Shown: piece by piece, positions 4,681 to 36,039 of the stretch
How the letters are laid out: the number at the start of each line of letters is the position of its first letter
Numbering within the stretch: the first letter of the stretch is position 1
Assembly (NCBI GenBank): GCA_012838135.1
Contig: DUPV01000054.1
Location: forward strand, 4,270-68,269
Source of the DNA: Clostridiaceae bacterium
GTDB taxonomy: Bacteria > Bacillota > Clostridia > Saccharofermentanales > DTU023
DNA: 64,000 nucleotides
Direction: 5' to 3'
Translations under genes and position numbers: made by a program
Notes under the pieces: generated by a model
Database searches by the model: none
Seen by the model: only the letters and a program-made list of their open reading frames with translations
What the model was told of the DNA's origin: nothing

Positions 4681-5505
4681 CTAATCCGCCCAATCACCGA
4701 CACCGTTCCATATTGAGGATAATTGACTGCACAGCACAGGGTAACGCTCTGTTACAGTAAAAAAGACATCCTGCATGGCTTTCATGCCGTGTGCATTATA
4801 GAGTTCTTTACCTAAGTTTCTTATATAGTCTCGATTCTTTTCGAGAGGCGTACCACCCAAAACAGCGGTGCCGCACATGGCAGAAAGATCATTAACCGCC
4901 ATCGTGACATGTTCCTGATAATCAAACATGCTTACACTTACTTGCCGTTTCAGATGGATGCCCGGCAATACAGCCTTGGAGTAATCTGTTCCCATCGGAA
5001 ATCCTTTGATTTTAATATTCGGGCTTGCAGCCACAACAACACTTGCCCAAAGATTTGGGTTAATCTCAAAATCGCGTCCTCGATCGTGCAGAATGCCAAA
5101 ATCGAAGCCGTGATATTCCAAGCCTTCACTGCCGATCTTTTTGGCAAAATAAGTATGACTAACTGTATTGTTTGCAAGTATATCCATGACAAGCATATAC
5201 AAAGGCTTATTATGGGAAACTAAATGCTCATGGATTGTGACTATGCAATCCGCAAGCGTAGTGGATATTTTTGCGCTTTGGTCTGCCGATACTTGTAAAG
5301 TGAAAAATTCTTGAAATCCGCCATATGTAATTGTTCGACCGTTGACGACTGAAACCACTCCCATAGTTTTAGGATGGAAGTAATATTGCATCTCCGGCGT
5401 ATGTTCTCCGGGGATGTTTACAACTTCTTGACCACATTGCTTACACCTTAAAGTATAATGCTCATTGCCTGCTAATGCTTGATTTTTCTTTTTGAACAGG
5501 TCCAT
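4681..5505 (-). CDS. hypothetical protein (274 aa), no family recognised
   Basis: ATG at 5505 is preceded by GGAGGATATATT. The ORF-track start at 5571 lacks an RBS. There is an N-terminal CxxC (CKQCG) but no second Cys pair. It is convergent with the ABC operon. Confidence 0.6.
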   Translation of the reverse strand: MDLFKKKNQALAGNEHYTLRCKQCGQEVVNIPGEHTPEMQYYFHPKTMGVVSVVNGRTITYGGFQEFFTLQVSADQSAKISTTLADCIVTIHEHLVSHNKPLYMLVMDILANNTVSHTYFAKKIGSEGLEYHGFDFGILHDRGRDFEINPNLWASVVVAASPNIKIKGFPMGTDYSKAVLPGIHLKRQVSVSMFDYQEHVTMAVNDLSAMCGTAVLGGTPLEKNRDYIRNLGKELYNAHGMKAMQDVFFTVTERYPVLCSQLSSIWNGVGDWAD

Positions 5506-5718
5506 AATATATCCTCCATTCTTTTTTATATAGATTTTTATAATTCCACGATAATCCCATAAAAAATACAATCTTAATCTCTGTCAAGCATACATATATA
5601 CAAAAAATTTTCAAATCTTTTCTGAAAATTCTCTACAACTTGTAATGCTCTTCAGATACATAAATGTTTTTAGCTAAATATAGTAATTATTATTTACCTC
5701 AAGATTAACTCTAAAATC

Positions 5719-5732
5719 GTGATAACAATCAC
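5719..5732. promoter_or_regulatory. CRP/FNR-type palindrome GTGAT-N4-ATCAC (xGTGA-N6-TCACx) upstream of pflB
   Basis: The sequence cGTGATaacaATCACt lies about 115-130 nt upstream of the pflB ATG. It matches the core of the classical TGTGA-N6-TCACA half-site arrangement. Confidence 0.3.
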
Positions 5733-5847
5733 TGCATTGAATATTCATTCATTTATGCTAAACATATCCGGAGTATATAAATCAGTATTAGTTCCTTATT
5801 AAAATAAAAAATATTATTCGTCAAATTAATCGTTGGAAAGGAATATT

Positions 5848-8118
5848 ATGAGCAATAATTTTACAGAAGAAAGAAAAAAAGCATGGCAAGGTTTTAAACT
5901 TGATAATTGGGCTGAAACAATCGATACCAGAAATTTTATCCAAAAAAATTATCAACCGTATACCGGAACAGATTCTTTTTTGGAGGAACCTACTGAAAAT
6001 ACAACATTCTTATGGAATAAAGTCAATGATATGATTCAGGATGAAGTGCGTAACAAGACCGTTACTGTTGATTTGTCTCGCTTCAGCGGCATTGACAAAT
6101 TTGATGCCGGTTACATAGATAAGGACAAAGAATTAATCGTAGGTTTACAGACTGATGAGCCCATGAAAAGAATGATGAATCCGTATGGCGGTTTCAGAAT
6201 GGTTAAAGGCTCCTTAAAAGCTTACAATTTAGAAATTGATCCGAAAATGGAAGAACATTTTACTGAATTCCGTAAAACCCATAATGACGGTGTATTTGAT
6301 GCTTATACCGATGAAATGCGCACAGTCAGATCTGTCGGTTTATTGACCGGATTGCCTGATGCTTATGGTCGCGGCAGAATTATCGGTGATTATCGTCGAG
6401 TTGCTCTATATGGTATTGACTATTTAATTCAAGAACGTATCAAAGATAAAAAGAATCTGACCGGCGATGCAACTGAAGAAATCATTCGTAAACGCGAAGA
6501 ATTCTCCGAGCAAATTCGTGCCTTGCAAGCCATGAAATCAATGGCAGCAAAATACGGCTTTGATATCGGTCGTCCTGCTTATAATGCACAAGAGGCAATT
6601 CAATGGCTCTACTTCGGATATTTAGCCGCAATCAAAGAAAATAACGGCGCAGCTATGAGTATAGGCAAGAACACAACTTTCTTGGATATTTATATTCAAC
6701 GTGATTTAGATAGCGGAACATTAACCGAAAAAAAAGCCCAGGAATTAATTGATCAATTTGTAATCAAGTTGCGTTTGGTTCGTCATTTGAGAACGCCTGA
6801 ATATGATGAATTATTCGCCGGTGATCCGACCTGGGTTACGGAAAGTATCGGCGGTATGGGTGAAGATGGTCGTACTCTGGTAACCAAAACCGCTTTCCGT
6901 TTCTTACATACGTTAACGAATTTAGATACATCGCCTGAGCCCAATATGACTGTATTATGGTCAAATGATTTGCCGCGCGGATTTAAAGATTATTGTGCCA
7001 AAATGAGTATCCGAACTGATTCAATTCAATATGAAAATGATGATTTGCTCCGTCCGATTTATGGCGATGACTGTGCAATCGCTTGCTGTGTATCGGCAAT
7101 GCAAGTCGGTAAACAAATGCAATTTTTCGGTGCCAGAGCGAATTTAGGTAAAGCTTTGCTCTATGCTCTGAACGGTGGTATTGATGAAATCAAAAGAGAT
7201 AAACACGGTAATTTAATCAAGGTAATTGATGGAATCGAGAAAAATACAGAAGAAATTTTAACCTATGATAAAGTTATGGTCGATTTCAAAAAAGTAATGG
7301 ACAAATTAGCAAAAATTTATGTGAATACGATGAACACCATTCATTACATGCATGATAAATATGCTTATGAGGCCGGCCAACTGGCATTACATGATCCGCA
7401 AGTTCACATCTTTATGGCATTTGGCATTGCCGGTATTTCAATTGTTGCCGACTCCCTATCCGCTATTAAATACGCTGCAGTTCGTCCGATTCGTGATGAA
7501 AACGGAATTACCGTTGATTTTGAAATCGAAGGAGATTTCCCGAAATTCGGTAATGATGATGATCGTGTTGATAACATTGCTCAAGACGTTTCGCAGTACT
7601 TCATGGATGCCTTGAAAAAAACACCTGCTTATCGCAATGCAGAACATACATTATCCTTATTGACCATTACCTCAAATGTAACTTACGGCAAGAAAACAGG
7701 TGCTACACCTGACGGTCGTAAAAAAGGTGAACCGTTTGCTCCCGGTGCAAATCCTATGCATGGCAGAGATGAGTCCGGCGCTTTAGCATCCCTGAATTCA
7801 GTCGCTAAATTAAAATATCAAGGATGCTGCCAAGACGGTATTTCCAATACATTCTCGATCATTCCGAGTTCACTCGGGAAAAATAGTCAGGAAAGAGTTA
7901 ATAACTTGGTAAATATTTTAGACGGTTATTTCAAACAAGATGCCTTCCATATTAATGTCAACGTTTTGGAAAGAGCATTATTGATTGATGCCATGAATCA
8001 TCCTGAAAAATATCCGAACCTTACGATTCGCGTTTCCGGTTATGCCGTACGATTCAATCAATTGGACCGGGAACAGCAAGAAGATGTTCTTGCCAGAACA
8101 TTCCATGAAGCTTTATAA
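5848..8118 (+). CDS. pflB: pyruvate formate-lyase (formate C-acetyltransferase)
   Basis: Glycyl-radical motif RVSGYAVRF near the C-terminus and active-site Cys-Cys (IACCVSAM). The roughly 756-aa length is typical. ATG at 5848 follows GGAAAGGA. Confidence 0.95.
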
Positions 8119-8136
8119 TCTTTACGAATGAATCTT

Positions 8137-8172
8137 AAAAAGTGACTGCCTCCAAGAGGCATTCACTTTTTT
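8137..8172 (+). terminator. rho-independent terminator/attenuator between pflB and pflA
   Basis: AAAAAGTGACTGCCTC / GAGGCATTCACTTTTT hairpin with one mismatch, followed by a T-run ending at 8172. It begins 19 nt after the pflB stop. Confidence 0.65.
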
Positions 8173-8270
8173 CAGTATTTCTCAAAGTCGGAGGTCTGAA
8201 TACCAGAATTTGTACAGTTCAAGATTCTGGACAGAAACCGTGTTTTAAAACAGTAAGGGAATTATTGACA

Positions 8271-9782
8271 ATGAATAAGCAAGAACAACAAATTACGGGA
8301 CAATTACATTCAATTGAATCAATGGGTTTAGTTGACGGTCCGGGTATTCGTACCATCTTCTTTTTACAAGGTTGCCCTCTGCGTTGTTTATATTGTCATA
8401 ATCCTGACACCCAAAATTTTGATGGCGGAAGAATTGTAACTCCGTCTGAAATTTTAAAATCAGCTAATCGCTATAAACCATACCAAGGTGAGGATGGCGG
8501 AATCACGTTTTCCGGTGGGGAACCTCTATTACAAGGTGAATTTTTAGCTGAATCTGTAAGACTTTTAAAAGAAAATGATTTCAACATCTGTATTGATACC
8601 TCAGGTTACGGTCAAAAGAAATATTATTCACAAATTTTTCCTTATGTTGATACGATTCTTCTAGACATTAAAGCCTTCTCTGAACAAGCTTATCTTGATA
8701 TGTGTTCTGTTCAACAAAAACCGTTGATCGATTTTATGAACGAGCTTGAGAATTATGGTTTTCACGGACAAATTTGGGTTCGCCATGTTATGGTACCCGG
8801 TTATACTGATAATACAAAATCTATGCAACAATTAATCCAAACTATCGAACCGATTCAACATTTGGTCGAGCGATTGGAAATATTGCCTTATCATACAATG
8901 GGCAAAGAAAAGTACAAAGAATTAAACATGCCCTATTTATTGGAAAATGTTGATCCTATGGATAAAGAAAAAGCAAAAGAATTTGAAGTTTATGCTAATG
9001 TTCTGTTAGCAGAACAAATGAGCAAGGACCGCATTGATCTAATAGAAAAGCAAGAAGTTGAAAGTTCTGCCCTCGAGAGCAATGTCACCCTTGAAGAATA
9101 TAACAAGATCATCGGATGTTTCTCCAATTTACCATTGTTACAACATATTGATCCGGATATTTTAAATGATATTCAACATAATTTGATTATCAAAAAATTA
9201 GAAAAAGAGGAAATTTTATTTCACAGCGGGGATGATCCTAACTATATGTACATCATATATTCCGGTGCTATTAAAATATTTAATGTATTGCCTAATATGA
9301 AAGAACAGATTTTCTACATTTACCGAAAAGATTCTTTTGTCGGAGGTCACAATCTATTATCTGACAGCAAATATTGGTATACAGGTGAAGCATTGCTGGA
9401 CTCGATTGTCATTGCTATCCCCTCGAAAATTTTCAATACCTATTTCTCCAATAAAAAACCTGTATTGAAAGAAATTTTAAGTCAAAGTTTTGCGAGAATT
9501 CGCTGGGCAGAAGATTTGATTAACCGTTTGGCTACCATCAATTCATCAGTTAAAACAGCCGGTCTAATCCTGCGTTTGGCAGAAAATTTCGGAATAAATA
9601 AGAATGGTCAAATTCAAATTCTAATGGAATTTGATCGTACCGAGATGAGCAATTTTTCAGGTTTAACCAGAGATTCTTTAACCAGAAAACTTGGTGAATT
9701 TGAAGAACTCGGCTATATTCACATCGAAAATGAAATGTTGACCATTCTCAATCTTGATGCTTTAGAATCTTATTTAGATTAA
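8271..9782 (+). CDS. pflA: pyruvate formate-lyase activating enzyme (radical SAM) fused to a C-terminal Crp/Fnr-family regulator (cNMP-binding-like barrel + HTH)
   Basis: Residues 1-245 form the activase: GxxDGPGIR, radical-SAM CPLRCLYC, GGEPLL and LPYHxxG. Residues 246-280 are a linker. Residues 281-503 form the regulator: FSNLPLLQHIDPDIL..., EEILFHSGD, YIIYSGAIKIF and the HTH RTEMSNFSGLTRDSLTRKLGEFEELGYI. The frame is continuous with no stop. Confidence 0.85.
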   Translation: MNKQEQQITGQLHSIESMGLVDGPGIRTIFFLQGCPLRCLYCHNPDTQNFDGGRIVTPSEILKSANRYKPYQGEDGGITFSGGEPLLQGEFLAESVRLLKENDFNICIDTSGYGQKKYYSQIFPYVDTILLDIKAFSEQAYLDMCSVQQKPLIDFMNELENYGFHGQIWVRHVMVPGYTDNTKSMQQLIQTIEPIQHLVERLEILPYHTMGKEKYKELNMPYLLENVDPMDKEKAKEFEVYANVLLAEQMSKDRIDLIEKQEVESSALESNVTLEEYNKIIGCFSNLPLLQHIDPDILNDIQHNLIIKKLEKEEILFHSGDDPNYMYIIYSGAIKIFNVLPNMKEQIFYIYRKDSFVGGHNLLSDSKYWYTGEALLDSIVIAIPSKIFNTYFSNKKPVLKEILSQSFARIRWAEDLINRLATINSSVKTAGLILRLAENFGINKNGQIQILMEFDRTEMSNFSGLTRDSLTRKLGEFEELGYIHIENEMLTILNLDALESYLD

Positions 9783-9976
9783 TTGTTTTGCTCTGCTTAT
9801 TTTAAAATAAGTAGCACTACTATTATTTTATAAAAGGGCAGTAAGTTTGTCTTACAACTTTATTAGTTGTTTTTGACATTTATTCATCTTAAAATTAAGA
9901 ATATTAATTTATAAATTTACATGAATTTAAGTTAATGCTTATATATTTTTTCTAAAGTAAATTGAGGACAAAAAAC

Positions 9977-10555
9977 ATGAAACTATTACTAAATTTATTT
10001 CTGACATTCTTTAAAATAGGACTCTTTACGTTTGGTGGCGGCTATGCGATGATCCCAATCATTGAACAAACTTGTGTTGAAAAAAACCGGTGGATTACTC
10101 ATGATGAAATGATGAATTTAACTGTTATCGCCGAATCTACACCGGGACCGATTGCAATTAATTGTGCAACTTATGTCGGTTACAAACAGAAGGGTTTTAC
10201 TGGAGCTCTGATATCGACCCTGGGAATGATTTTACCTTCATTCATAATTATATATACAATTTCAATTTATTTTGATAATTTTCTGGAAATCATGATTATA
10301 GCTAAAGCTTTTAAAGGCATTAAAATTGCAGTAGGCGTGTTAATTCTTGATGTTGTAACCAAAATGATAAACAAAATGCCTAAGAAACCGGTTCCGTTAA
10401 TCATCATGTTTGCCTCTTTTCTTACAATGTTGCTGATCAACATCTTCGCTTGGAATTTTTCTTCAATCAGTTTATTGCTGATTGCTGCCGCTATTAATTT
10501 AGTTATATTTCTTGTCAAAGATAACTCTAAATCGAAAGGCGGTGCTGCAAAATGA
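9977..10555 (+). CDS. chrA: chromate transporter family protein, short (half-size) ChrA, first of pair
   Basis: FGGGYAMIP motif and ESTPGPIAIN motif, with several TM segments. Paired with the following half-size paralogue. Confidence 0.8.
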   Translation: MKLLLNLFLTFFKIGLFTFGGGYAMIPIIEQTCVEKNRWITHDEMMNLTVIAESTPGPIAINCATYVGYKQKGFTGALISTLGMILPSFIIIYTISIYFDNFLEIMIIAKAFKGIKIAVGVLILDVVTKMINKMPKKPVPLIIMFASFLTMLLINIFAWNFSSISLLLIAAAINLVIFLVKDNSKSKGGAAK

Positions 10556-11109
10556 TTTATTGGGAACTTTTTCTCGGTTTTTTCGAAGTTGGATGCTTTT
10601 CTTTCGGTGGTGCTTACAGTTCAATTCCGTTAATTCGCGATGTAGTATTGGCATATGGTTGGTTAAATGATGACATGATTACCTACATGATTGCAGTCAG
10701 TGAAAGCACCCCGGGACCGATTATGGTCAATTTAGCTACCTATGTCGGCAGCAATCAAGCCGGTTTGATCGGTGCGGCAATTGCAACATTCGCCGTCGTT
10801 CTGCCCGCCTTTATTATCATTTTGCTTATTACAGCATTACTCAAAACCGCTCTTGAAAACAAATATATTCAATCTGTACTCAATGGACTAATACCTTGTA
10901 TTATCGGTATAATTCTTGCAACCGCTTGTTATATGATAATTAATAATGTAGTCACAATCACAACCGGCATCACCTTTAACATACAGGCAATCATAATATC
11001 TGCTATTCTGATCAGTATTTCTTTTGGTTCAAGAACATTGCGCAAAAAAAGTATTTCTCCGATTTTTCTGATCATAATATCTGCATTTTTGGGAATTATG
11101 GTATTTTAA
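10552..11109 (+). CDS. chrA: chromate transporter family protein, short ChrA, second of pair
   Basis: FGGAYSSIP and ESTPGPIMVN motifs. ATGA overlap with the upstream half at 10552-10555. Confidence 0.8.
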   Translation: MIYWELFLGFFEVGCFSFGGAYSSIPLIRDVVLAYGWLNDDMITYMIAVSESTPGPIMVNLATYVGSNQAGLIGAAIATFAVVLPAFIIILLITALLKTALENKYIQSVLNGLIPCIIGIILATACYMIINNVVTITTGITFNIQAIIISAILISISFGSRTLRKKSISPIFLIIISAFLGIMVF

Positions 11110-11214
11110 TGTCGCGTGATATTTTACAACTTTAATATATAAAAATTAAAAGACGGCCAAATTATTTCGGTTTTTTGTTTGAACTCTTAGAACTATTTGA
11201 TAAGATCAAGTTAC

Positions 11215-13878
11215 ATGCAAAATACATCATCTGACAAAAACCAAATCGCTATTTCAGCCAGAAGATTGGCAGAAATGATCCATCGCAGCGGCGGTTTAGC
11301 TGTGCCTGTTTATGGCGGGATCGATTCATTGGACGGGATCAAAATCCATCAAAAGTTTTCTGCTTACTTAAACAGTTTTTCAGTTACTGCTGCTGACGAG
11401 AAATTAGAGATGAAGCTCTCAACAGATGGACCCGACAGTGACGATTTAACCGCAGTTTCCGGGAAAAAATCTGATGATATATCTGTTATGGGATTTGATT
11501 ACGTGTATTCCGAATTAAGTTTATCCGGGAATTATTCCGCGTCTGAATTTAATTTAAAAATCAACGGTCGTTTGGATAATTTAACTATTAAAAATCATCA
11601 AATTGTTTTATATGAAATTAAGAGTTTTCGTGGTAACAGTGTTTTTTTACCGGAACATGGCGACCCCATGCATTGGGCACAACTTAAAATATATGCCAAT
11701 CTGATTAAGAATATTGAAGCAGAAAATTATGCAGAAAACATTAAATTAAATTCGCCGGATCTGATCAAAGCAATTGAACAAGCTCTTAAACATGATACCA
11801 TAACTTTAAAATTGATTTATATTGCCGCTGATCATAACGAAATTATTGAAAAAAGTAGAGTCTTTACATGGGATGAGTTATCTGAATTCATGACTGCAAC
11901 TTGTCAGGAATATATTTTTCGTATGCAAAATATTTTTCTCTGGCAAGATATTCGCAATAAATCAATTCAAAACTCAGGTTTTCCTTTTGCAACTATTCGT
12001 AACGGTCAGAGAGAAATGATGCGTCAGACTTTGGCAACAATCAGGGATAACAATGCTATCTTAGTTCAGGCTCCGACCGGCATCGGAAAAACTATGGCTA
12101 CACTCTACCCTGCTCTCAAAGCTTTAAGTGCAAAATATGTCAATCGTATTTTTTATGCAACTGCCATGATTGCCACCAGAGACATTGCTTTACACAGTCT
12201 ACAGCTTTTACGTAATTGCGGTTTTATGATTCGCAGTATCTTGCTTCAGGCAAAAGAAAAAATTTGCACTCAACCGGATATATTTTGTGACCAAACAATT
12301 TGTCCTTTCGCAATTGACTATTATCAAAGATTACCCGATGCAATTAACGATTTATTGCCTTTACAAGAAATCAAACCGCACAATATTACTGAAATCGCTT
12401 TAAAACATCAGGTTTGTCCGCATCAACTATCACTGGATTTTTCTGAGTTTTGCGATGTGATTATTGGCGATTATAACCATATCTTCGATCCGCAAGCCAA
12501 AATTCAACGATTTTTCGAAATTCAGGACGAGCATAATAAAACTGCAATCTTGATTGATGAAGCTCATAATCTTCCAGCCAGAGCAAGGACGATGTATTCA
12601 GCCGGAATCAAAGGCGAAGACATTATCAAAATTCGCAATATCTTAAAATATCCTGAGCTTAATTTCAGTAATCAATATGGTTCATTGATCAATACTCTGG
12701 AAGTCATGATTAATGAATTGCAAAATTTTTCCGAAATATTTAAAACTTGTAAAAAACCTGACCATAACAACTTTTTTTCTGTACAATTAAATGCTCAATG
12801 GTTAATTGATCAAAGCTTTATCGGTGTAAGACAATTGCCGGATATATTTTTAAGCAAAATCGGCAGATTAATTTATCTGATTAGAGATTTCCTTGACCAG
12901 CAGCGAATTTTTGAAGGCAGACAATTAATTTTGGACTTTTGGTTTGATTTACTTTATTTTGTCAAGGTTGCTGAATTTTATTTCAATGAAGCCTATATAA
13001 CCGCATTCAGACCAAGTCAAATCGGTTTTGCCGATATTTATTTGTTAGCCTTGGATACTGCAAAACATTTAACAGATTGTTACTTAAACAAACATCCGAT
13101 CATATTCTTTTCTGCAACATTATCACCAATCAACTATTATCATGCTTTGCTAAACTGTCAACTCCGAGAACAGCCGGCTGAAATGTTGTTGTTAGCTTCA
13201 CCATTTCCATATGAAAACCGATTAATTGCTGCTTTGACCGAATATTCAGTCCGTTTCAAAGATCGTGAACAAACAATGCCCTTGATTGCAAAATTCATTT
13301 TTGAAACTTGTAAGAAACATATTGGCAATTATTTGATTTTTGTTCCGTCTTATCAATATCTATTCCAAATCAAAAAGGCAATCGAGAAAACAATTAAATC
13401 TATTTATGAAATTGATTTAATCTTTCAAAACAGAAATATGACAGAATTGCAAAAAAGAGCTTTTTTAAAGAAGTTCGAACAATTTGGTACAAGAAGTCTG
13501 TTAGCTTTTGCCGTTTTAGGCAGCCATTTCAATGAAGGAATTGATTTGCAAGGCGAAAAATTATCCGGCGTTTTTGTTATCGGTACCGGCATGCCGCAAA
13601 TATCAACGGAACGGGAAATCATGACTCAATATTATGCCGAAAAATTTGAAGGCGGACGAGCTTACGGATATCAATATCCCGGATTTAATCGAGTACAACA
13701 AGCTGTAGGCAGATTGATCCGAAGCGAGCGGGATGTCGGCTTTGCCATATTAATCGACGATCGCTATTCAAATCCCGAATGGCAGACTATTTTCCCGGAT
13801 GATTGGTTGGTTAAACAATTTGATCAACATCAAGAATTGCTTTCTGAGATCGAAATCTTCTGGCAAGATCATTATTGA
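11215..13878 (+). CDS. nuclease-helicase: N-terminal PD-(D/E)XK (RecB/Cas4-like) domain fused to an XPD/Rad3/DinG-type Fe-S SF2 helicase
   Basis: Nuclease motifs are IHQK, GRLD (D121), YEIK (E134, K136) and QLKIY (Q156/Y160). Helicase motifs are Walker A APTGIGKT, DEAH box DEAHNL, a Cys cluster (C-TQPDIF-C-DQTI-C ... V-C-PHQ) between them, and the C-terminal QAVGRLIRSERD. Confidence 0.75.
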   Translation: MQNTSSDKNQIAISARRLAEMIHRSGGLAVPVYGGIDSLDGIKIHQKFSAYLNSFSVTAADEKLEMKLSTDGPDSDDLTAVSGKKSDDISVMGFDYVYSELSLSGNYSASEFNLKINGRLDNLTIKNHQIVLYEIKSFRGNSVFLPEHGDPMHWAQLKIYANLIKNIEAENYAENIKLNSPDLIKAIEQALKHDTITLKLIYIAADHNEIIEKSRVFTWDELSEFMTATCQEYIFRMQNIFLWQDIRNKSIQNSGFPFATIRNGQREMMRQTLATIRDNNAILVQAPTGIGKTMATLYPALKALSAKYVNRIFYATAMIATRDIALHSLQLLRNCGFMIRSILLQAKEKICTQPDIFCDQTICPFAIDYYQRLPDAINDLLPLQEIKPHNITEIALKHQVCPHQLSLDFSEFCDVIIGDYNHIFDPQAKIQRFFEIQDEHNKTAILIDEAHNLPARARTMYSAGIKGEDIIKIRNILKYPELNFSNQYGSLINTLEVMINELQNFSEIFKTCKKPDHNNFFSVQLNAQWLIDQSFIGVRQLPDIFLSKIGRLIYLIRDFLDQQRIFEGRQLILDFWFDLLYFVKVAEFYFNEAYITAFRPSQIGFADIYLLALDTAKHLTDCYLNKHPIIFFSATLSPINYYHALLNCQLREQPAEMLLLASPFPYENRLIAALTEYSVRFKDREQTMPLIAKFIFETCKKHIGNYLIFVPSYQYLFQIKKAIEKTIKSIYEIDLIFQNRNMTELQKRAFLKKFEQFGTRSLLAFAVLGSHFNEGIDLQGEKLSGVFVIGTGMPQISTEREIMTQYYAEKFEGGRAYGYQYPGFNRVQQAVGRLIRSERDVGFAILIDDRYSNPEWQTIFPDDWLVKQFDQHQELLSEIEIFWQDHY

Positions 13879-34834: not shown

Positions 34835-36039
34835 TCCTGATGCATAATTTTGTTAATTTCATTGATTTCAGCTGCAGCTCTGCCATCAGACCAATGAATC
34901 TTGATTTGTTGACCGATAGAAACTTTATTGACAGAATCTATTGTTGCATTCTCTGAACTTTCGATATAAGCATAGCCGCGTTCCAAAATAGAAAAAGGAT
35001 TTAGAGCCTTTAAATTATCATAAAGAAATCTCAGTTGTCTTTTTTGATTAGTCGTCAGATGTTTAAGCTCACGTCCGATACGTTCTTTTAATTGTTTTAT
35101 CGTTTGTCTTTGTTGTTCAATTATAATCACAGGATTTTTAAAAACGGATCTTTCTGTCAAAAAATCCAAGGTCTGCTTAGCATTAAATAACTGACGTTCC
35201 AATGCCTTTATTATTTTATTCCGTTCGGATTGAATATTATCAAGCAACATCTTCTTTTCCGGTAAAACCAATTCTGCAGCAGCTGAAGGGGTCGGAGCTC
35301 TTAAGTCTGCACAGAAATCAGCAATCGTAAAATCTGTTTCATGGCCTATTGCAGAAATCACAGGAATTCTCGAATTATAAATTGCATCTGCTACTATTTT
35401 TTCATTGAAAGCCCATAAATCTTCAATTGAACCACCGCCTCTGGCAATAATAATTACATCAACTTCATTTATCTGATTAAAAAGCTTAATCGCATCAGCT
35501 ATTTGCTCAGCCGCTCCGGTTCCCTGAACAGCAACCGGGATAAAGTGCATCTTGAATCCGGGAAATCTACGACGCAATACATTGATTATATCTCTGATTA
35601 CAGCACCTTCCGAGGATGTAGCAACCCCGATCAGATCCGGCAGATAAGGAAGCGGTTTTTTAGTTTTTTCAGAAAAGTAACCTTGAGCTGCCAGTTCTTT
35701 TTTCAGTAATTCAAATTGTTGATGCAGATCACCGATTCCTTGCGGTTCCATAGAATTAACAATCAATTGGAAACGACCGGCAACTTCATATATACTCGCT
35801 TTAGCTTTTAAGCAAACCTTGTCACCGTTTTGCGGAGAAAACTTGATGCGACTGTAATTTGAACGAAACATCACGCAACTGACGCTGGAACTCTCATCTT
35901 TCAAAGAAAAATAATAATGCCCGGAAGGATAAAGTTTACCGCCGGATATTTCACCATAAACTTGGATGTTAATCAGGTTGGGATTATCATCTAGAATCTT
36001 TGCAACTAAACGATTTAATTCAGAAACAGAATAAGTCAT
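34831..36039 (-). CDS. xseA: exodeoxyribonuclease VII large subunit
   Basis: N-terminal OB fold (VSELN..V..IL......I.V.GEIS) and central GRGGGS-like ARGGGSIEDLW. Confidence 0.9.
   Translation of the reverse strand: MTYSVSELNRLVAKILDDNPNLINIQVYGEISGGKLYPSGHYYFSLKDESSSVSCVMFRSNYSRIKFSPQNGDKVCLKAKASIYEVAGRFQLIVNSMEPQGIGDLHQQFELLKKELAAQGYFSEKTKKPLPYLPDLIGVATSSEGAVIRDIINVLRRRFPGFKMHFIPVAVQGTGAAEQIADAIKLFNQINEVDVIIIARGGGSIEDLWAFNEKIVADAIYNSRIPVISAIGHETDFTIADFCADLRAPTPSAAAELVLPEKKMLLDNIQSERNKIIKALERQLFNAKQTLDFLTERSVFKNPVIIIEQQRQTIKQLKERIGRELKHLTTNQKRQLRFLYDNLKALNPFSILERGYAYIESSENATIDSVNKVSIGQQIKIHWSDGRAAAEINEINKIMHQE

What the first reader, a model, noticed from the sequence alone, without database searches (positions are those of the whole stretch)
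8271..9782. Radical-SAM PFL activase fused in-frame to a complete Crp/Fnr-type transcription factor
PflA proteins are normally about 245 aa. Here a single uninterrupted 503-codon frame encodes three parts.
- Residues 1-245 form a complete activase: CPLRCLYC cluster motif, GGEPLL and LPYHTMG.
- Residues 246-280 form an approximately 35-aa linker.
- Residues 281-503 form a complete Crp/Fnr-like module, a beta-barrel effector domain followed by the HTH SGLTRDSLTRKLGEFEELGYI.

The regulator module has neither an FNR-type N-terminal nor a Bacillus-Fnr-type C-terminal Cys cluster. Its only nearby Cys is in the linker (IGCF).

Inference: the [4Fe-4S]/SAM state of the activase domain could act as the oxygen or redox sensor for the DNA-binding domain, giving a one-polypeptide sensor-activator for the pfl operon. 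I do not recall this architecture being described.
Basis: partly seen in the sequence, partly recalled or inferred. Interest (0 to 1): 0.7.

Follow-up and report, generated by a model that had tools for sequence, protein, structure and literature searches.

The report
PFL activase fused to its regulator
One gene encodes both the radical-SAM enzyme that switches on pyruvate formate-lyase and a Crp/Fnr-type transcription factor whose conserved binding site sits on the pyruvate formate-lyase promoter, a conserved enzyme-plus-regulator fusion I could not find described in the literature.

Summary
Window 8271-9782 is one uninterrupted 503-codon frame. Residues 1-245 are a bona fide PflA (NCBIfam equivalog above cut-off; fold match to E. 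coli PFL-AE). Residues 288-503 are a complete Crp/Fnr module (both Pfam domains above gathering score; fold match to CRP/GlxR/FNR). It is not an assembly artefact: at least 120 clusters at 90% identity, down to 42% identity, share the ~500-aa architecture, always directly after pflB.

New here: every distinct fused locus with a pflB upstream region (33/33) has one perfect GTGA-N6-TCAC box. The box sits about 41.5 bp upstream of the inferred start (−40.5 in the window's clade), with a near-consensus −10 and no −35, which is Class II CRP/FNR geometry. The box matches the module's CRP-like R-(E/D)-x-x-x-R recognition helix. Unfused relatives exist as separate genes directly after pflB-pflA with the same box (5/5). 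Most of these carry an N-terminal multi-Cys motif exactly where the fusion has PflA plus a linker.

So the protein is most likely a bifunctional activase and autoregulatory activator of the pfl operon. It is weakened by a variable flexible linker and by a Cys-free unfused relative. Six literature searches found no description.

The parts
5719..5732 (+). Predicted operator of the Crp module: perfect palindrome GTGATAACAATCAC (GTGA-N6-TCAC core), centred about 40.5 bp upstream of the inferred pflB transcription start
   Evidence: It is the only exact match in the 64-kb window. The same box is present once upstream of pflB in 33/33 distinct fused and 5/5 distinct unfused-linked loci. 49 of the 52 perfect cores in 755 kb of fetched DNA are this site. 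The flanks diverge while the box is kept.
5754..5759 (+). Inferred -10 hexamer (TATGCT) of the pflB promoter; no recognisable -35
   Evidence: A TATAAT-like hexamer lies at a fixed offset after the box: it starts 22 nt after the 14-mer in 31/40 promoters, and 19-21 nt after it in the other 9, which include the window's clade. Mean match is 5.3/6 for the -10 against 2.0/6 for the best -35. The transcription start is inferred, not mapped.
5848..8118 (+). pflB, pyruvate formate-lyase (glycyl radical enzyme), 756 aa from the conserved ATG
   Evidence: Pfam PFL-like 667 bits and Gly_radical 126 bits. The ORF listing starts the frame at TTG 5833. ATG 5848, preceded by GGAAAGGA, is conserved in L001-L004.
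8137..8172 (+). Hairpin plus T-run between pflB and the fusion gene: probable internal terminator or attenuator
   Evidence: Terminator scan hit at 8147-8161. The hairpin is conserved with compensating substitutions in L001-L003 and L012 and is absent in L004. Distant fusions have only 8-40 bp spacers.
8271..9782 (+). Fusion gene: PflA activase + linker + Crp/Fnr module, 503 aa
8271..9005 (+). PflA domain (residues 1-245): DGPGxR, C35-x3-C39-x2-C42, GGE, DTSG, RH and PYH motifs all invariant in the family
   Evidence: TIGR02493 scores above its cut-off. Invariant columns are listed. Foldseek matches 3c8f/3cb8 with TM 0.85-0.87.
9006..9131 (+). Linker (residues ~246-287): continuation of the PflA C-terminal helix, a low-confidence break, then a short helix; E/K/R/L-rich
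   Evidence: Length is 38-68 aa across the family, with column identity 0.44 against 0.66-0.83 in the folded parts. AF2 shows a helix at 232-264 and mean pLDDT of 68 and 57 for residue blocks 251-260 and 261-270. Cys283 is conserved in under 1% of members.
9132..9455 (+). Crp/Fnr beta-barrel sensor domain (residues 288-395), including the loop NMKEQ (341-345; E345 invariant, Q346 at least 90%) that aligns with FNR residues 85-88 (GDEQ)
   Evidence: cNMP_binding above GA. Alignment to A. fischeri FNR. Invariant columns.
9456..9533 (+). Long C-helix (residues 396-421) with the family hallmark (F/Y)xRIRWAEDLIxRL; the dimerisation helix by homology
   Evidence: AF2 helix 396-421. It is the most conserved segment, with column identity 0.83, and is shared with unfused relatives.
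9543..9779 (+). Winged HTH (residues 425-503); recognition helix T466-R467-D468-S469-L470-T471-R472-K473 (family consensus R-R-E-T-I-T-R-K)
   Evidence: HTH_Crp_2 above GA. R467/D468/R472 align with CRP R180/E181/R185. R467, T471 and R472 are at least 90% conserved and K473 is invariant.

Best explanation
The gene encodes a bifunctional protein.

N-terminal half: a working pyruvate formate-lyase activase. It is a radical-SAM [4Fe-4S] enzyme that puts the glycyl radical on PflB.

C-terminal half: a Crp/Fnr-type transcription factor. It dimerises through its long C-helix and binds the GTGA-N6-TCAC palindrome that replaces the -35 element of the pflB promoter, centred about -41.5 (-40.5 in this window). 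From there it recruits RNA polymerase as a Class II activator. It thereby switches on pflB and, by read-through, its own gene, which is a positive autoregulatory loop.

Origin: the fusion arose by in-frame joining of pflA with the regulator gene that lies directly after it in related genomes.

Input signal (inferred): the unfused regulators mostly carry an N-terminal multi-Cys motif, presumably Fe-S binding, and the fusions have lost it. My preferred reading is therefore that the state of the PflA domain now gates dimerisation or DNA binding, so the operon is activated only when the cell can actually make active PFL. The relevant state is cluster integrity first, with SAM or PflB occupancy as alternatives.

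Shown here: the architecture, its conservation, the box and its geometry, and the unfused counterparts.
Inferred: DNA binding, activation, the autoregulatory loop and the nature of the signal.

My probabilities:
- Real fused protein: 0.97.
- Fused module binds this box and activates pflB: about 0.8.
- PflA-domain state is the regulatory input: about 0.35.
For: - Architecture and integrity of both halves.
- Conservation in at least 120 clusters at 90% identity and 64 fused loci, always in the order pflB then fusion.
- Box statistics: a perfect core in 33/33 distinct fused and 5/5 distinct unfused-linked promoters, against 0/1 for a pfl operon without a linked regulator. 49 of 52 perfect cores in 755 kb are this site. 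None occurs in the stand-alone loci L074/L077 or the non-fusion loci L006/L007..
- Geometry: the -10 sits at a fixed offset, with mean match 5.3/6, while the best -35 averages 2.0/6..
- Specificity match: the recognition helix R-(E/D)-x-x-x-R aligns with CRP R180/E181/R185, which read TGTGA (established knowledge)..
- The invariant E345/Q346 loop aligns with FNR residues 85-88, which I recall as activating region 3 used at Class II promoters..
- Unfused counterparts directly after pflB-pflA with the same box.
- N-terminal C-x2-C-x2-C-x4-C motif in 64/117 stand-alone relatives at the position of PflA plus linker.
Against: - There is no experimental evidence of any kind.
- Stand-alone paralogues with the same recognition helix exist in the same lineages and could read the box instead.
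- Only one pfl operon without a linked regulator could be examined as a negative control (L007).
- The transcription start is inferred from the -10 only.

Against the sensor step in particular:
- The linker is long, variable and poorly conserved.
- AF2 gives no defined domain-domain packing (pTM 0.55).
- A Cys-free, unfused, pfl-linked relative exists (P0185), so the regulator can work without any Fe-S input of its own.
- The beta-barrel core is strongly conserved between fused and unfused forms, which fits an independent small-molecule effector.
Confidence: 0.7

Rival explanations
1. Passive fusion. The Crp module is an autonomous pfl regulator, either controlled by an unknown small molecule bound in its beta-barrel or constitutively active. 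Joining it to PflA only guarantees co-expression and low, matched copy number. The PflA domain carries no regulatory information.
For: - The barrel, C-helix and HTH hallmarks are the same in fused and unfused forms.
- Cys-free unfused relatives exist, both pfl-linked (P0185) and unlinked (L074, L097).
- The linker is variable in length and sequence and has low confidence in AF2.
- The intergenic gaps in unfused operons are only 10-60 bp, so loss of a stop codon is an easy, possibly near-neutral event.
Against: - The fusion is maintained from 100% down to 42% identity across several classes of Bacillota. That argues for selection rather than accident.
- The N-terminal Cys motif of most pfl-linked unfused relatives is absent from all fusions. 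This suggests the sensory input was replaced, not just appended.
Confidence: 0.3
2. Substrate-titration trigger enzyme. The PflA domain reports how much non-activated PflB is present. Docking of the 170-kDa PflB dimer onto the PflA domain sterically blocks, or alternatively promotes, dimerisation and DNA binding of the tethered Crp module. This would give feedback control of pflB transcription by the activation state of its own product.
For: - The PflB-loop-binding motif DGPGxR and all the SAM and cluster motifs are invariant, so the domain should still bind PflB.
- A long flexible tether suits a steric or occupancy mechanism better than rigid allostery.
- The regulon appears to be the pfl operon alone in the DNA examined.
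Against: - It is purely inferential.
- It does not explain why the unfused relatives carry a Cys motif.
- PflA acts catalytically and its complex with PflB is transient (established knowledge of the E. coli system).
Confidence: 0.12
3. The conserved box is read by a different Crp/Fnr protein, for example the stand-alone paralogue with the same recognition helix. The fused HTH has another target or is vestigial.
For: Cys-poor stand-alone paralogues with an RE..TR helix occur in Saccharofermentanales and 'Clostridiaceae' MAGs, the same lineages as the window's closest relatives.
Against: - The box co-occurs with a pfl-linked regulator, fused or not, in 38/38 distinct promoters, and is absent from the one pfl operon without such a regulator.
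- The HTH is among the best conserved parts of the fusion (column identity 0.79), so it is not decaying.
- No second box type is conserved in the loci.
- Local regulators usually act on the adjacent operon (general knowledge).
Confidence: 0.06
4. Sequencing or assembly artefact: two genes, pflA and crp, joined by a missed stop codon or frameshift.
For: Unfused versions with very short gaps exist. Two fetched loci (L020, L062) have the two parts in different frames.
Against: The same uninterrupted ~500-aa frame occurs in at least 120 independent clusters at 90% identity and in 64 fetched loci, from many assemblies and sequencing projects, with divergent linker sequences that all stay in frame.
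Confidence: 0.01

Closest known systems
FNR (E. coli / Aliivibrio fischeri; PDB 5cvr, 5e44, 8qto)
   Same: - It is the best solved-structure sequence match for the C-terminal half (E = 1e-15, aligned over FNR residues 26-249).
- It has the same barrel, C-helix and HTH layout.
- It has the same logic of an anaerobic-metabolism activator with a sensor placed N-terminal to the barrel.
- E. coli FNR activates pfl from Class II-type sites (established knowledge).
- The loop aligned with FNR residues 85-88 is conserved here.
   Different: - There is no N-terminal Cys cluster and no Cys at the FNR Cys122 position in the window protein.
- The NCBIfam FNR model scores 67-70 bits against a cut-off of 228.
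- The recognition helix is CRP-like (R-D/E-x-x-x-R) rather than FNR-like (E-x-x-S-R), and the box is GTGA-N6-TCAC rather than TTGAT-N4-ATCAA.
- A whole 245-aa radical-SAM enzyme sits where FNR has about 30 residues.
CRP / CAP (E. coli) and the actinobacterial CRP/GlxR proteins
   Same: - Best fold matches for the C-half (TM up to 0.87).
- The DNA-contacting R/E/R triad aligns.
- The box is the CRP core TGTGA-N6-TCACA, perfect in Gallicola.
- Class II geometry at -41.5.
   Different: - No cAMP clamp: the positions of E72, R82 and S83 are not conserved.
- The NCBIfam CRP equivalog scores 32-35 bits against a cut-off of 266.
- It looks like a single-operon local regulator rather than a global one, as far as the fetched DNA shows.
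PflA / PFL-AE (E. coli; PDB 3c8f, 3cb8)
   Same: The N-half is a member: it passes the equivalog model, keeps all catalytic and binding motifs, has the same fold, and is encoded directly after pflB.
   Different: Ordinary PflA is about 245 aa and ends after its C-terminal helix. Here that helix runs on into a linker and a 215-aa transcription factor. Only about 2 full-length fused representatives appear in the exhaustive search of 50%-identity representatives, where 446 reach E <= 1e-30 and those listed are mostly plain PflA.
Unfused pfl-linked Crp/Fnr regulators of Tissierellaceae, Wansuia hejianensis and others (P0153, P0194, P0139, P0168, P0185), uncharacterised
   Same: - Same subfamily hallmarks (FVGGxNLL, RIRWAEDLI, RE..TR helix).
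- Same position directly after pflA.
- Same box at the same distance from the -10.
   Different: They are separate ~240-aa genes. Most have an N-terminal C-x2-C-x2-C-x4-C motif plus a Cys at the column of window residue 330. The fusions lack both and have PflA plus a linker instead.
Trigger enzymes that carry their own DNA-binding domain (PutA, BirA, NadR); from general knowledge
   Same: One polypeptide combines an enzyme with a transcription factor acting on its own pathway genes. The enzyme's ligand or substrate state can set DNA binding.
   Different: None of those involves a radical-SAM or Fe-S enzyme or a Crp/Fnr module. They are repressors, whereas the geometry here predicts an activator. 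Coupling between the two halves is unproven here.

Membership tests
PflA (pyruvate formate-lyase activating enzyme, TIGR02493) | Scores above the curated equivalog cut-off | tested here: met
   257.7 bits against 231.75, over residues 12-237.
PflA (pyruvate formate-lyase activating enzyme, TIGR02493) | CX3CX2C radical-SAM cluster motif, the GGE SAM motif and the DGxGxR glycine-loop-binding motif | tested here: met
   C35/C39/C42, G82-G83-E84 and D22-G23-P24-G25-x-R27 are present in the window protein, and all are invariant or at least 90% conserved in the family.
PflA (pyruvate formate-lyase activating enzyme, TIGR02493) | Partial TIM-barrel fold of PFL-AE | tested here: met
   Foldseek against 3c8f/8fo0/3cb8: E = 1e-23, TM 0.85-0.87, rmsd 2.2-2.4 A, 34% identity, on a model with pLDDT of about 90-98 in this region.
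PflA (pyruvate formate-lyase activating enzyme, TIGR02493) | Encoded next to its substrate gene pflB | tested here: met
   pflB at 5848-8118 lies directly upstream. The same order holds in all fetched loci with enough sequence.
PflA (pyruvate formate-lyase activating enzyme, TIGR02493) | Generates the glycyl radical on PflB | not testable with these tools
   Needs an anaerobic enzyme assay with EPR.
Crp/Fnr superfamily of transcription factors | cNMP-binding-type beta-barrel plus a C-terminal Crp-type winged HTH, each above the Pfam gathering score | tested here: met
   PF00027 scores 58.1 bits (GA 27.5). PF13545 scores 41.3 bits (GA 27).
Crp/Fnr superfamily of transcription factors | Whole-module fold, including the long dimerisation C-helix | tested here: met
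   AF2 helix at 396-421 between the barrel and the HTH. Foldseek TM 0.74-0.90 to MtbCRP, GlxR, NtcA and FNR.
Crp/Fnr superfamily of transcription factors | Binds a palindromic site of two 5-bp half-sites as a dimer | tested here: inconclusive
   A matching conserved palindrome was found at the cognate promoter. Binding itself cannot be tested in silico.
FNR proper (oxygen-sensing [4Fe-4S] regulator) | N-terminal Cys cluster (Cys20/23/29 in E. coli) plus Cys122 | tested here: not met
   The window protein has no Cys in the Crp module. The linker Cys283 is conserved in under 1% of members. The position aligned to FNR Cys122 is Ile.
FNR proper (oxygen-sensing [4Fe-4S] regulator) | Scores above the NCBIfam FNR subfamily cut-off | tested here: not met
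   NF008365 scores 66.6-69.5 bits against a cut-off of 228.
CRP proper (cAMP receptor protein) | cAMP-binding residues (E72, R82, S83) and the equivalog score | tested here: not met
   NF008732 scores 32-35 bits against a cut-off of 266.
Trigger enzyme (enzyme whose catalytic or ligand state controls its own DNA-binding activity) | Enzyme and DNA-binding domain in one protein acting on the same pathway | tested here: met
Trigger enzyme (enzyme whose catalytic or ligand state controls its own DNA-binding activity) | The state of the enzyme domain changes DNA binding | not testable with these tools
   Indirect evidence only: Cys-motif loss in the fusions, set against a flexible linker and a low pTM.

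The most novel reading that the evidence does not exclude
A radical-SAM enzyme domain has been recruited as the sensory module of a transcription factor. It replaces the small Fe-S Cys motif of the ancestral FNR-like pfl regulator. The integrity of PflA's oxygen-labile [4Fe-4S] cluster, its SAM occupancy or its engagement with PflB would then decide whether the Crp module dimerises and activates the pfl promoter. That would make it the first radical-SAM trigger enzyme, and a natural example of one Fe-S sensor being swapped for another at the same position of a Crp/Fnr scaffold.
Probability: 0.33. Interest if true: 0.8.

Novelty: new variant of a known kind. Interest (0 to 1): 0.62.

Why it matters
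PFL activation has been understood as two separate layers. One is transcriptional control by global regulators such as FNR and ArcA in enterobacteria. The other is post-translational activation by PflA. Here both layers sit in one polypeptide with a clearly predicted operator, in a family that is common in anaerobic-digester and fermentation communities (Saccharofermentanales, Limnochordia, Tissierellia, Christensenellaceae).

It provides three things:
1. A compact, testable system for asking whether an Fe-S or radical-SAM enzyme can serve as a sensor domain for a Crp/Fnr factor.
2. A natural evolutionary series: regulator with a Cys motif and unfused, regulator without Cys and unfused, and regulator fused to PflA. 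This series can be used to dissect how sensory inputs are exchanged in this superfamily.
3. An annotation correction. All public records call these proteins just 'pyruvate formate-lyase-activating protein' or 'radical SAM protein'. The linked unfused regulators are called only 'Crp/Fnr family transcriptional regulator' or 'cAMP receptor protein'.

The well-defined box and promoter pair could also be useful as an anaerobic expression switch in Clostridia.

Tried and rejected
- Linker Cys283 ('IGCF') as a cluster ligand or redox switch: rejected. It is present in under 1% of 118 family members. Its alignment with FNR Cys20 is a coincidence of this one sequence.
- cAMP or another cyclic nucleotide as effector: rejected. 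There is no phosphate clamp and the CRP model scores far below its cut-off.
- Internal promoter TTGCCA-18-TATAAT at 8090-8119 (11/12 match) as the source of basal fusion-gene expression: rejected. The hexamers are not conserved in L001-L004, and the whole scan found no more promoter-like sites than shuffled sequence (17 against 18.9).
- One-mismatch boxes at 35719 and 38087: both lie inside ORFs, and the count equals chance (3 found, 2.0 expected).
- Extra perfect cores in L036/L038 (inside pflB) and in L061 (inside an ORF), and the one in L097 (about 4 kb upstream of the regulator gene there): treated as chance.
- My first tally of '38/38 fusion loci' wrongly counted some unfused-linked loci as fusions. 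It was redone with a same-frame test: 33/33 fused and 5/5 unfused-linked.
- Neighbour-joining tree to count fusion events: internal branches were too short. Fusions are not cleanly monophyletic, and a few unfused proteins fall among them. One versus several fusion or fission events stays unresolved.
- Proving that the Cys-poor stand-alone paralogue and the fusion co-exist in one genome: not achieved. One search gave only short Logan contigs, and the window has no second Crp, pflA or pflB.
Only L007 was usable, because L006 lacks the pflB start.
- Literature: six full-text searches found nothing on the fusion or on a pfl-linked Crp/Fnr regulator. The library lacks most subscription-journal papers, so absence is not proof.
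Full report
**1.

Window 8271-9782 (+) is one open frame of 503 codons. The frame stays open upstream to GTG 8142. However, ATG 8271 is the start shared with all homologues.

Profile searches place four domains:
- Radical_SAM, residues 31-182.
- Fer4_12, residues 21-132.
- cNMP_binding, residues 308-393, 58.1 bits against a gathering score of 27.5.
- HTH_Crp_2, residues 429-500, 41.3 bits against 27.

The N-terminal half passes NCBI's equivalog model for PflA: TIGR02493 scores 257.7 bits against a cut-off of 231.75. An AlphaFold2 model built on 76 family members has a mean pLDDT of 89.4. Foldseek matches its N-half to E. coli PFL-AE (3c8f/3cb8, TM 0.85-0.87, 34% identity). It matches the C-half to MtbCRP, GlxR, NtcA and FNR (TM up to 0.87). 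By sequence, the closest solved relative of the C-half is Aliivibrio fischeri FNR (E = 1e-15). That alignment starts just after FNR's N-terminal cluster segment.

**2. It is not an artefact**

A search of 5.8 billion clustered proteins listed at least 120 clusters at 90% identity with the same four-domain, ~500-aa architecture. Their identity to the query ranges from 100% down to 42%, and the listing was cut off at 120. Sources include NCBI, JGI, ENA and Logan assemblies. The taxa named are Saccharofermentanales and 'Clostridiaceae' MAGs, Mageeibacillus, Christensenellaceae, Limnochordia, Gallicola and Ndongobacter.

Among the loci I fetched, 64 have the PflA and Crp parts in one uninterrupted frame. 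pflB lies directly upstream wherever the contig reaches that far.

In an exhaustive HMMER pass over 1.84 billion 50%-identity representatives, only about two full-length fused representatives appear. By comparison, 446 representatives reach E <= 1e-30, and those listed are mostly plain PflA of about 245 aa. The family is therefore compact in sequence space and a minority architecture, although it is frequent in anaerobic-digester and fermentation metagenomes.

**3. Anatomy of the protein family**

I aligned 118 fused proteins.
- The only invariant cysteines are the radical-SAM triad C35/C39/C42. C107 is Cys in 84%.
- All PflA hallmarks are invariant or nearly so: DGPGxR, CX3CX2C-HNPD, GGE, DTSG, D-x-K, RH...PG.TD and LPYH. 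The activase should therefore be functional.
- The linker (residues ~246-287) is 38-68 aa long and rich in E/K/R/L. Its column identity is 0.44, against 0.74 for PflA, 0.66 for the barrel, 0.83 for the C-helix and 0.79 for the HTH.
- In the model, the PflA C-terminal helix runs on to residue 264, then there is a low-confidence break, then a short helix. A pTM of 0.55 means the relative placement of the two domains is undefined.

The Crp half has three family hallmarks:
- EQIFYIYxxxxFVGGxNLL in the barrel.
- (F/Y)xRIRWAEDLIxRL in the C-helix.
- A recognition helix with the consensus R-R-E-T-I-T-R-K, which is T-R-D-S-L-T-R-K in the window.

In a BLASTP alignment with E. coli CRP, R467/D468/R472 fall on CRP R180/E181/R185. 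CRP's cAMP ligands E72, R82 and S83 have no counterpart. The invariant E345 and near-invariant Q346 align with FNR residues 85-88, GDEQ. From my own knowledge, those residues belong to FNR's activating region 3, which is used at Class II promoters.

**4. The target site**

A perfect palindrome GTGATAACAATCAC lies at 5719-5732, 116 bp upstream of the pflB ATG. It is the only exact GTGAT-N4-ATCAC in the 64-kb window.

Each of the five close fusion loci has exactly one, upstream of pflB. The two loci with unfused pflA and no regulator have none. In alignments the flanks diverge while the box is kept. Distant fusions, at about 50% protein identity and with a very different GC content, keep it as well: TGTGATCTGGATCACA in Gallicola and GTGATCCGCGTCAC in Limnochordia.

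A strict tally classified loci by whether both parts share one frame:

| Class of locus | Distinct promoters with a perfect GTGA-N6-TCAC core |
|---|---|
| Fused | 33/33 |
| Unfused but pfl-linked | 5/5 |
| pfl operon with no linked regulator | 0/1 (best 6/8) |

Over 40 distinct promoters the consensus is aAAnaGTGATnnnn(g/a)TCACnGC. A -10 hexamer follows, starting 22 nt after the 14-mer in 31/40. It starts 19-21 nt after it in the other nine, which include the window's clade. The mean match to TATAAT is 5.3/6, whereas the best -35 averages only 2.0/6. With the usual 7-nt distance from the -10 to the start, the box centre falls at -41.5 (-40.5 in the window, with a predicted start near 5766). 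This is the textbook arrangement of a Class II CRP/FNR-dependent promoter, where the activator site replaces the -35. The box also matches what an R-E-x-x-x-R helix is known to read.

**5. The unfused counterpart**

The metagenome scan also returned stand-alone proteins of about 240 aa with the same hallmarks (L074). A protein search seeded with one of them found a whole stand-alone subfamily in the same lineages.

Context look-ups show that several are encoded directly after pflB-pflA as separate genes, with gaps of 10-60 bp:
- P0153 in Tissierellaceae and P0194 in Wansuia hejianensis.
- P0139.
- P0168.
- P0185.

Those whose pflB upstream region is on the contig carry the same single box at their pflB promoter, at the same distance from a TATAAT.

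Of 117 stand-alone relatives, 64 are Cys-rich. They have C-x2-C-x2-C-x4-C immediately before the (I/L)PLL that opens the Crp module, plus a Cys at the column of window residue 330. Fusions have none of these. In the fused proteins, PflA plus the linker therefore occupies exactly the position of a small multi-Cys motif, presumably Fe-S binding, in the unfused regulators.

The C-terminal tail of the unfused PflA ('...AKEWERYANRLHAQQLSASRNARS*') resembles the start of the fusion's linker. That fits origin by stop-codon loss between adjacent genes.

Two caveats apply:
- P0185 is pfl-linked, unfused and has no Cys at all.
- Other Cys-poor stand-alones are not pfl-linked (L074, L097, L102).

A neighbour-joining tree could not resolve whether fusion happened once or several times.

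**6. How it most likely works**

Shown:
- One polypeptide with an intact PflA and an intact Crp/Fnr module.
- A conserved CRP-type box at the Class II position of the promoter of the operon that encodes it.
- The same regulator-box pair in unfused form.

Inferred:
- The C-terminal module dimerises via its C-helix, binds the box and activates pflB.
- The fusion gene follows pflB directly (8-40 bp in most clades). In the window's clade it lies behind a conserved hairpin and T-run at 8137-8172 that probably lets only some transcripts through.
- The protein would therefore also stimulate its own synthesis.

I put about 0.8 on this core.

The input signal is open. My preferred reading, at about 0.35, is that the PflA domain's state has taken over the role of the lost Cys motif. 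Cluster integrity is the most likely variable, given how oxygen-labile radical-SAM clusters are.

The alternatives are:
- A passive fusion with an autonomous barrel effector or constitutive activity (about 0.3). The variable linker, the low pTM and the Cys-free unfused relative favour this.
- Feedback through occupancy of the PflA domain by non-activated PflB (about 0.12).
- The box being read by a paralogue (about 0.06).

**7. Comparison with what is known**

The N-half is a member of PflA: every feature testable here was met. The C-half is a member of the Crp/Fnr superfamily. It is neither FNR proper (no Cys ligands; 67-70 bits against 228) nor CRP proper (no cAMP clamp; 32-35 bits against 266). 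Functionally it resembles FNR in role, being an anaerobic activator of pfl, and CRP in DNA recognition.

As an enzyme fused to a regulator of its own operon, it belongs conceptually with trigger enzymes such as PutA, BirA and NadR (general knowledge). Unlike them it has a radical-SAM enzyme, a Crp/Fnr module and activator geometry.

Public annotations call it only 'pyruvate formate-lyase-activating protein', 'radical SAM protein' or 'helix-turn-helix domain-containing protein'. Six full-text literature searches found no description of the fusion or of the pfl-linked regulator. The library omits most subscription-journal papers, so I cannot exclude a prior mention.

**8. Verdict**

I rate it a new variant of a known kind. 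The parts are known, but the conserved combination is new and comes with a defined operator and a natural fused/unfused series. Interest is 0.62.

Noticed in passing
window 8137-8172: Hairpin (AAAAAGTGACTGCCTC-CAA-GAGGCATTCACTTTTTT) plus T-run between the pflB stop and the fusion-gene start. It is conserved with compensating substitutions in L001-L003 and L012 but deleted in L004. It is probably an internal terminator or attenuator that sets a high PflB to low PflA-Crp ratio.
   Followed up: partly
window 8203-8230: Inverted repeat CCAGAAT-N14-ATTCTGG in the same pflB-pflA spacer. It is semi-conserved in L001 and L003. It could be a second RNA hairpin or an operator. Not analysed.
   Followed up: no
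alignment column of window residue 378 (window 9402-9404): This column is Cys in 69% of fused proteins, 0% of Cys-rich stand-alones and 5% of Cys-poor stand-alones. The window has Ser. By eye, the divergent fused clade (P0110, P0117, P0118, P0120) has a Cys four residues later, at the position that aligns with FNR Cys122. This is a fusion-specific cysteine with no assigned role.
   Followed up: partly
window 5733-5735 and the equivalent positions in 40 promoters: The two bases after the box's flanking position (TCAC-n-GC) are conserved, G in 40/40 and C in 38/40, on the promoter-proximal side only. This asymmetry is not explained by a symmetric dimer site.
   Followed up: no
L074 4902-5630; L102-L104: Cys-poor stand-alone paralogues of the Crp module occur in Saccharofermentanales and 'Clostridiaceae' MAGs. 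They keep the same RE..TR helix and have the N-terminus 'EDPRTWSLF'. They always sit in an rsgA-rpe-thiamine pyrophosphokinase context, with no box nearby. Their target and signal are unknown, and cross-talk with the pflB box is possible.
   Followed up: partly
L100 2030-2758; L101 433-1161 (P0185): A regulator that is pfl-linked, unfused and has no cysteine at all. In the tree it sits next to the window's fusion clade. It may be an intermediate between the Cys-motif regulators and the fusions.
   Followed up: partly
L062 and L020: The PflA and Crp parts are closely related to fused forms but lie in different reading frames. This could be a frameshift error or a secondary fission.
   Followed up: no
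P0390 (564 aa), P0363 (442 aa): PflA-like proteins with long N-terminal extensions (the PflA part lies at residues 322-550 and 195-425). These are other unexamined PflA fusions.
   Followed up: no
window 4681-5571 (-): A 296-aa ORF transcribed divergently from pflB, with no Pfam match at E <= 0.01.
   Followed up: no
window 9962-11109 and 11197-13878: Directly downstream of the fusion gene lies a split chromate-transporter pair: two Chromate_transp ORFs whose ends overlap by 4 bp. After it comes an 893-aa DinG/XPD-like helicase (DEAD_2 + Helicase_C_2) with an N-terminal extension of about 260 aa that has no Pfam match.
   Followed up: no
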